Shown here in pieces: positions 26,030 through 26,427 of a stretch of 64,000 nt of DNA (the stretch's first letter is position 1; every line of letters starts with the position of its first letter). The stretch spans positions 36,084,001-36,148,000 of the forward strand of contig OZ024756.1 in assembly GCA_964016885.1 (NCBI GenBank), read 5' to 3'. The position numbers were made by a program, and so were the translations under genes. The notes below the pieces were generated by a model that made no database searches, was not told the DNA's origin, and was given only the letters and a program-made list of their open reading frames with translations. Source of the stretch: Eledone cirrhosa. Lineage: Eukaryota.

Positions 26030-26427
26030 AAATTAAAAAGAAAAAATGTTCGCTCTACATGGCTGAATACAGTAAATGTAATCTGAGTTTTTCAAATATT
26101 AATAATAACATTCGATTCGTTTGCAATTATGCAAACAAGCCTCAATTTTATAGCCATATCAGTAGAATGAACCCTTCATTCTTGCTCTTGTGTTGGCATG
26201 TGAACAGAACTGCAGACAGTAATGTTTCTGGGTATCACCCTTCATCAGTACAGCTCACTGTTCACCTGCCAAACTGTCAGAGCTAGTGAAATATATGCTA
26301 TTTTCTAAAATACACAAGAGCAAGAATGAAGGGTTCATTCTACTGACATGGCTATAAAATTGAGGCTTGTTTGCATAATTGCAAACGAATCGAATGTTAT
26401 TATTAATATTCGAAAAACTCAGATTAC

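What the first reader, a model, noticed from the sequence alone, without database searches (positions are those of the whole stretch)
26193..26272. Full-length-style type I hammerhead with extended bulged stem I on the minus strand
Unlike the minimal copies, this one has a GUC site, a closed 3-bp stem III and a 15-bp outer stem I separated from the 7-bp inner stem by a UG bulge. That geometry is the kind that allows stem I-loop II tertiary contacts in fast hammerheads. It sits in the unpaired spacer between the 119-bp inverted arms, so the fold-back does not mask it. One defect is the A.A mismatch at the base of stem II.
Basis: partly seen in the sequence, partly recalled or inferred. Interest (0 to 1): 0.75.

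Follow-up and report, generated by a model that had tools for sequence, protein, structure and literature searches.

The report
Retrozyme hammerhead with fixed A·A mismatch

Summary
The type I hammerhead is real (minus strand; GUC, cut predicted 26215/26214). It is one lone, 5'-truncated copy of a ~441-nt head-to-tail non-coding repeat, a non-LTR retrozyme (2803 relaxed-core matches). It shows Penelope-type insertion marks: (TA)n flanks, an inverted partial copy and a one-sided ~43-nt tail. Three corrections. (1) A·A at 10.1/11.1 is the lineage state: no copy lacks the A before GAAA, a 65%-identical sister family keeps it (97 of first 100), and a third homologous family has U·U or C·A. (2) Covariation gives a 6-bp stem I plus a 3x1 loop with conserved U1.7, not 7 bp plus a UG bulge. 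(3) Family stem III is self-complementary, which suggests dimer cleavage; this copy carries a rare change there (14 versus 1104 exact matches). That change is its real defect. No RNA run was listed and no parent Penelope element found. The scan already noted other retrozyme families in this genome. A known kind of element with a small, conserved, untested ribozyme variant.

The parts
26242..26248 (-). Hammerhead core strand C3-A9 (CUGAUGA)
   Evidence: sequence
26229..26241 (-). Stem II: A10.1 (26241) opposite A11.1 (26229), three G-C pairs, 5-nt loop UGAUA (or 4 bp + 3-nt loop if the U-A closes)
   Evidence: A.A fixed in family:
26225..26228 (-). Core strand G12-A15.1 (GAAA)
26215..26225 (-). 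Stem III and GUC site; predicted cut 26215/26214. Position 26219 differs from the family and breaks the self-complementary 10-mer
   Evidence: 14 vs 1104; duplex -1.0 vs -8.8 kcal/mol
26249..26254 (-). Stem I proximal 5' strand, 6 bp with 26214-26209
   Evidence: covariation
26255..26257 (-). 5' side of the stem I internal loop (UGA here; UAU/UAA in relatives), opposite U1.7 at 26208
26258..26272 (-). Stem I distal 5' strand, pairs with 26207-26193
26193..26214 (-). Stem I 3' strand: 26214-26209 proximal, U1.7 at 26208, 26207-26193 distal
26030..26316 (-). Direct arm of the insertion: 5'-truncated retrozyme unit, positions 175-462 of the 441-nt unit of L011, 93% identical
26312..26430 (+). Inverted, more truncated second copy (unit 299-415, no hammerhead), joined to the direct arm through a 5-nt overlap at 26312-26316
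26031..26074 (-). About 43-nt 3' extension present on one arm only (Penelope-type tail)
   Evidence: family 3' ends peak at unit 418 and 460
25948..26029 (.). (TA)n/(CA)n microsatellite flank
26430..26480 (.). (TA)n microsatellite flank

Best explanation
The motif is the type I hammerhead of a ~441-nt non-coding repeat family (a non-LTR retrozyme), present here as one 5'-truncated copy with an inverted partial copy in a TA repeat, likely pasted in by a Penelope-like reverse transcriptase. In tandem source loci two hammerheads would pair through their self-complementary stems III and cut after GUC. That would release unit-length RNAs that host ligases circularise, and these would be the templates for new insertions (inferred from described retrozymes). 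Stem I (6 bp, 3x1 loop, U1.7) would dock on loop II as in full-length hammerheads (inferred). A10.1.A11.1 is an old, tolerated or selected non-Watson-Crick pair in this lineage (shown as sequence; its effect on rate is untested). This window's copy has no partner hammerhead, a broken stem III palindrome, and lies antisense to the neighbouring RhoGAP gene, so it is most likely an inert insertion that cuts slowly at best.
For: Copy number: 1104 exact family cores, 2803 relaxed, 0 controls. Head-to-tail units of 437-444 nt between successive hammerheads in five tandem loci, GC 37-39%; 30 of 167 aligned segments exceed one unit. In 28 distinct loci (first 30 hits minus 2 duplicates): 25 end in a microsatellite, 13 have an adjacent inverted partial copy, 1 has two hammerheads. 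3' ends peak at unit 418 (30 of 167) and 460 (19 of 167). These are the insertion marks described for Penelope-like elements (PMC8557442, passages). Structure: between the main family and sister family F4, 8 of 10 core-anchored stem I pairs change, 5 on both sides, and all 8 stay paired (rough chance 6e-4). U1.7 is U in 95 of 98, 6 of 6, 25 of 25, 29 of 30 and 10 of 11 copies across five groups while its would-be partner changes A to U. Stem III is palindromic in all three families. A.A: 29 of 30 loci picked without regard to stem II; 97 of first 100 in F4; no alternative letter at 10% or more in laid contigs; 0 copies without the A before GAAA. Homologous family F5 (68% to ours): U.U 86, C.A 11, other 3 of first 100.
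Against: No cleavage or expression data exist in my calls. No excess of 5' ends at the predicted cut (2 of 167 at unit 277-278), so the genome copies give no direct trace of cutting. No autonomous Penelope element sharing this unit's ends was found in 70 GIY-YIG loci. The thermodynamic model gives monomer stem III a probability of 0.00-0.05 and prefers an alternative helix that sequesters the core. PMC3088659 (passages).1-11.1 the most conserved pair after 15.1-16.1 and says U.U is the best-tolerated mispair, so A.A should cost activity. In the 2026 preprint 8 of 9 predicted Xenopus retrozyme dimers did not cleave in vitro. Long tandem arrays of this family were not seen; most copies are single.
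Confidence: 0.8

Rival explanations
1. One reading: this particular copy is a fast, monomeric, tertiary-stabilised hammerhead that cuts at low Mg2+, with A.A as a private defect.
For: Intact core and GUC, stable stem I unmasked by the arms; the 26219 change shortens the competing core-stem III helix from 7 to 5 pairs; invertebrate retrozyme hammerheads can cut as monomers (0.1-0.8 per min, PMC7229834).
Against: A.A is family-wide; stem III probability 0.05; axolotl HHR_Amex2, with a base mismatch in helix II and a short helix III, reaches only 22% in 1 h as a monomer.
Confidence: 0.12
2. The ribozyme is dead in the whole family: A.A was a crippling change in a master copy that amplified anyway, because Penelope machinery needs no hammerhead.
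For: Naiad elements proliferate without canonical hammerheads (PMC8557442); no cut-site signal in 5' ends; few tandem copies.
Against: Stem I was almost rewritten between families without losing a pair, while core, A.A, U1.7 and a palindromic stem III were kept at 65% identity; dead RNA would not keep that.
Confidence: 0.15
3. The 441-nt unit is just the pseudo-LTR of an autonomous Penelope-like element and the copies are its 5'-truncated ends.
For: Insertion marks are those of Penelope-like elements; GIY-YIG elements abound (10596 first-look candidates); Xenopus retrozymes resemble pLTRs.
Against: Upstream of the hammerhead the copies run back into the unit's own 3' end, not into an ORF; the one family copy near a GIY-YIG ORF is a separate, opposite-strand insertion with its own TA flanks.
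Confidence: 0.08

Closest known systems
Metazoan non-LTR retrozymes (Cervera and de la Pena 2020, PMC7229834, text parts 1-4 of 6 read; Li, Clavereau and Pollet, bioRxiv 10.64898/2026.07.22.740005, parts 1-3 of 5 read)
   Same: Non-coding unit of a few hundred bases, low GC, one canonical-geometry type I hammerhead per unit, head-to-tail copies and solo monomers, highly paired predicted circle.
   Different: Unit 441 nt, above the 170-400 nt of the 2020 paper but inside the preprint's 51-972 bp; mostly single truncated copies with inverted arms rather than long arrays; expression and circles not shown here.
Axolotl HHR_Amex2 and the U10.1-U11.1 natural variants (PMC7229834; PMC3088659 passages)
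   Same: Type I hammerhead with a mismatch at the base of helix II and a short helix III, better as a dimer.
   Different: The mismatch here is A.A (U.U and C.A in a homologous family); stem III is a 10-nt palindrome.
Minimal hammerheads of Penelope-like elements (Cervera and de la Pena 2014, PMC4209133, parts 1-2 of 4 and supplement file 2 parts 1-2 of 3 read)
   Same: An A after A9, palindromic helix III, Penelope-type insertion. One of 56 rows of Fig. S3 has an extra A before GAAA (by row order probably the Cotesia bracovirus element; column order is not kept in the text), a likely precedent for A on both sides of helix II.
   Different: Minimal motifs have long helix II, 4-5 bp helix I and no tertiary loop; this one has the canonical 6-bp helix I with internal loop and a short helix II.
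Schistosoma full-length hammerhead tertiary contact (U1.7 with the last A of loop II; passages of PMC11875169)
   Same: U at 1.7 conserved and free of a conserved partner; loop II ends in A in all families.
   Different: Contact inferred from position only; no structure or kinetics.

Membership tests
Type I hammerhead ribozyme | Core C3 U4 G5 A6 N7 G8 A9 / G12 A13 A14 A15.1 / U16.1 H17 | tested here: met
Type I hammerhead ribozyme | Three helices, stem I open, supported by covariation | tested here: met
   stem III weak as a monomer
Type I hammerhead ribozyme | Watson-Crick pair (usually G-C) at 10.1-11.1 next to the core | tested here: not met
   A.A in the family; natural U.U exceptions are known; alternatively read as G10.1-C11.1 with an extra A on each side
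Type I hammerhead ribozyme | Match to an Rfam hammerhead model | tested here: not met
   no hammerhead family at E<=10
Type I hammerhead ribozyme | Site-specific self-cleavage | not testable with these tools
   needs in vitro assay
Full-length (tertiary-stabilised) type I hammerhead | 6-bp helix I with internal loop, U1.7, loop II ending in A | tested here: met
   geometry only; the contact itself is untested
Non-LTR retrozyme | Short non-coding unit with one type I hammerhead, in head-to-tail repeats, GC under 50% | tested here: met
   units 437-444 nt, GC 37-39%; no RT or endonuclease ORF is continuous with the unit in the loci translated
Non-LTR retrozyme | Two consecutive hammerhead-bearing units at this locus (the preprint's criterion for an active element) | tested here: not met
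   one hammerhead only in the window's insertion; dimers exist elsewhere
Non-LTR retrozyme | Expression as linear and circular unit-length RNA | not testable with these tools
   no RNA holder listed
Autonomous Penelope-like element | RT and GIY-YIG ORF between pseudo-LTRs | tested here: not met
Penelope-mobilised insertion | 5' truncation, partial tandems, adjacent inverted copy, one-sided tail, microsatellite targets | tested here: met
   tail about 42 nt against 30-40 bp in PMC8557442
Minimal PLE hammerhead (min-HHR) | Short helix I without tertiary loop, long helix II, no helix III | tested here: not met
   against PMC4209133

The most novel reading that the evidence does not exclude
A whole retrozyme clade in this genome (over 15,000 hammerhead matches in three families 64-68% alike) has been selected to keep a non-Watson-Crick pair at hammerhead position 10.1-11.1 (A.A, U.U or C.A, with Watson-Crick only as stray mutants). 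The mismatch would act as a built-in brake, with the palindromic stem III, so that tandem precursors cut but finished circles do not, and A.A would be an active natural variant that descriptor searches discard.
Probability: 0.3. Interest if true: 0.58.

Novelty: new variant of a known kind. Interest (0 to 1): 0.36.

Why it matters
The element class is known and its link to Penelope-like elements is already proposed in print, so the locus itself is ordinary. What may matter to ribozyme specialists: position 10.1-11.1 is treated as a required pair, and at least one survey rejected hits with a mispair there (PMC3088659), and Rfam misses this motif. A lineage that keeps A.A while rewriting stem I suggests such filters drop real families. 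It also gives a ready natural series (A.A, U.U, C.A) to test how retrozyme circles avoid cutting themselves, a question PMC7229834 leaves open.

Tried and rejected
1) Rfam: no hammerhead hit, only microsatellite-driven miRNA noise. 2) RNA evidence: no RNA holder listed; the four runs of unrecorded kind were laid as contigs and used only for letter frequencies. 3) Cut-site run-off signal: none, 2 of 167 5' ends at unit 277-278. 4) Parent element: 70 GIY-YIG loci (30, 40 fetched, of 150 listed) hold no element sharing this unit's ends; L101 and L106 are unrelated neighbours. 5) My idea that an unrelated CGC-stem family covaries A.A with U.U was rejected: it has A-U or U.U, with A.A in 2 of the first 100. 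6) An A-U or canonical ancestral subfamily: not found; 66 copies with another letter at 11.1 look like scattered mutants. 7) A loose search for other A.A families gave 124 matches against 27 for the control, mostly without clear stems. 8) MAFFT alignment A1 misplaced the 3' strand of F4 and two rows were mis-bounded, so pairs were counted by fixed offsets from the core instead. 9) No match in metagenome contigs. 10) Literature: searches for hammerhead + A10.1, + A-A mismatch, + cephalopod, + octopus + Penelope found no description of this family or of A.A. Lunse et al. 2017 on PLE hammerhead variants and Martick and Scott 2006 are not held, and the supplement of PMC7229834 could not be read; these may hold a precedent.

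Full report
Observation. The minus strand of 26193-26272 holds a complete type I hammerhead: CUGAUGA at 26248-26242, stem II flanked by A 26241 and A 26229, GAAA at 26228-26225, a 3-bp stem III, GUC at 26217-26215 and a long stem I. The 80-mer folds better than all 200 shuffles (z -3.2). The arms are 119 bp with 2 mismatches (26075-26193 and 26312-26430), and in the fold of the whole insert stems I and II survive while stem III is rarely formed (0.04-0.05). Rfam has no hammerhead hit here.

What it belongs to. The window lies in a 3.0-Gb animal genome; that it is an octopus-like cephalopod is my inference and was not determined. The motif is a high-copy repeat: 1689 first-look candidates, 1104 exact matches to the family's 34-nt core, 14 to this window's version, 2803 to a relaxed core, 0 for reversed controls. 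Upstream of the hammerhead, copies run back into the family's own 3' end, which defines a head-to-tail unit of 441 nt. Five tandem loci give cut-to-cut units of 437-444 nt, GC 37-39%, whose circular folds (-132 to -139 kcal/mol) beat mononucleotide shuffles (-89 to -98, sd 5-7), partly through internal repeats. No RT or endonuclease ORF is continuous with the unit in the loci I translated. This matches metazoan non-LTR retrozymes (PMC7229834).

How it got here. The window's insertion is a direct arm (26316-26030, unit 175-462) plus an inverted arm (26312-26430, unit 299-415), with a 5-nt overlap at the joint, about 43 extra bases on one arm only, and TA repeats on both sides. Of 28 distinct loci (first 30 hits, two duplicates dropped), 25 end in a microsatellite, 13 have an adjacent inverted partial copy and 1 holds two hammerheads. 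Among 167 aligned segments, 3' ends peak at unit 418 (30) and 460 (19), and 30 are longer than one unit. 5' truncation, partial tandems, an inverted 5' copy, a one-sided tail and (TA)n targets are the marks described for Penelope-like elements (PMC8557442). The genome has many GIY-YIG elements, some with RT similarity. So the 119-bp arms are an insertion by-product. Mobilisation by Penelope enzymes is inferred; it is proposed in PMC7229834 and in a 2026 preprint. I found no parent element in 70 loci.

The fold, by comparison. I counted pairs at fixed offsets from the core in distinct copies of three subfamilies (143 copies, 129 in register), a sister family F4 (36 copies, 30 in register; 322 genome matches) and a third family F5 (11 copies; 12,696 matches). 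The families are 64-68% alike around the motif, well above shuffles. These sets were picked by patterns, so their counts are not a random sample. Between the main family and F4, 8 of 10 stem I pairs change, 5 on both sides, and none breaks (rough chance 6e-4). The seventh position behaves differently: U1.7 stays U while the base opposite is A in the main family and mostly U in the others. Stem I is therefore 6 bp, a 3x1 loop, then a distal helix, the canonical arrangement (helix I 6 bp, PMC4209133), not 7 bp plus a UG bulge. Loop II begins with U and ends with A in every family, which fits the U1.7 to loop II A contact of full-length hammerheads (PMC11875169); the contact is inferred.

The A.A. 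It is not damage. No copy lacks the A before GAAA. 66 copies have another letter there, scattered over G, T and C. 29 of 30 loci chosen on stem I alone have A.A, laid contigs show no other letter at 10% or more, and F4 keeps it (97 of first 100). F5 has U.U (86), C.A (11) and 3 others in its first 100. Three different mismatches in amplified groups, and no amplified Watson-Crick state, hint at selection for a non-canonical pair, but three states are too few to prove it, and an unrelated family in the genome uses A-U or U.U. In print, U.U is known and active, and one minimal hammerhead row in PMC4209133 Fig. S3 has an A before GAAA. I found no description of A.A in a full-length hammerhead, but a key paper on such variants was not available. 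The alternative reading, G10.1-C11.1 with one extra A on each side, cannot be excluded.

Stem III and this copy. In the family the ten bases from A15.1 to U16.1 are self-complementary (duplex -8.8 kcal/mol), and F4 and F5 have 6-nt palindromes. That is the design of hammerheads that cut as dimers in tandem transcripts. The window's copy differs from the L011 copy within the 80-mer only at 26219, which drops the duplex to -1.0 kcal/mol; it is a 14-versus-1104 minority form. The insertion has one hammerhead. It lies about 11 kb upstream of the first matched exon of an ARHGAP32/33-like gene on the plus strand (exons 37604-60837), so it is antisense to that gene. It is most likely inert.

Against. 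No cleavage or expression data; no excess of 5' ends at the cut site; the energy model prefers a core-sequestering helix in the monomer; 8 of 9 predicted Xenopus retrozyme dimers failed to cut in the preprint. My odds: retrozyme copy with Penelope-type insertion 0.9; A.A family catalytically active in tandem context about 0.7; this copy fast as a monomer about 0.12.

Verdict. Observation confirmed, interpretation partly supported. A new family of a known kind of element, with a small conserved ribozyme variant that is easy to test. Earlier notes of this scan describe other retrozyme families with the same insertion marks in this genome; none matched this sequence. Interest 0.36.

Noticed in passing
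window 37604-60837 (+): At least 13 exon-like matches to ARHGAP32/33 (CdGAP-like; SH3 and RhoGAP) proteins; the first match near 37604-37817 switches frame at about 37740-37770, which may be an assembly error or an indel.
   Followed up: partly
window 58922 (-) and 58939 (+): Inverted pair of hammerhead-like cores with U.U at the base of a 3-bp stem II, in an intron of the RhoGAP gene; one lies on the gene's sense strand. A widespread family in fetched loci; no conventional stem I seen.
   Followed up: no
   Followed up: no
window 24749-25111; L015, L021, L029, L030, L045: A SINE-like repeat that also inserts repeatedly into the retrozyme unit near unit position 385 at a TTATTAAT stretch; the SINE label is from recall.
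   Followed up: partly
L005 (G000:C25) versus window 26011-26480: Another chromosome holds the same direct-plus-inverted arrangement with the same joint (95% over 473 bp) but different flanks; unit position 175 is a recurrent 5' end (5 of 167), likely through the 5-nt microhomology.
   Followed up: partly
L246:4680-6190 and G000:C1 5540692-5543697: Family F5, 12,696 core matches, in tandem arrays of about 460-510 nt with a GUA site; probably one of the 464-470-nt retrozyme families noted earlier in this scan, not checked.
   Followed up: partly
L164:6020-6330, L148, L149: An unrelated hammerhead family (463 matches) with a CGC/GCG stem II and A-U or U.U at its base, inserted with the same inverted-arm and TA pattern.
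   Followed up: partly
window 8704-8806 and 9002-9079 (+): Two weak U6 snRNA-like matches below the Rfam cut-off.
   Followed up: no
window 25790-25950 and 26482-26580: Fragments of two other TA-associated repeats flank the insertion.
   Followed up: no
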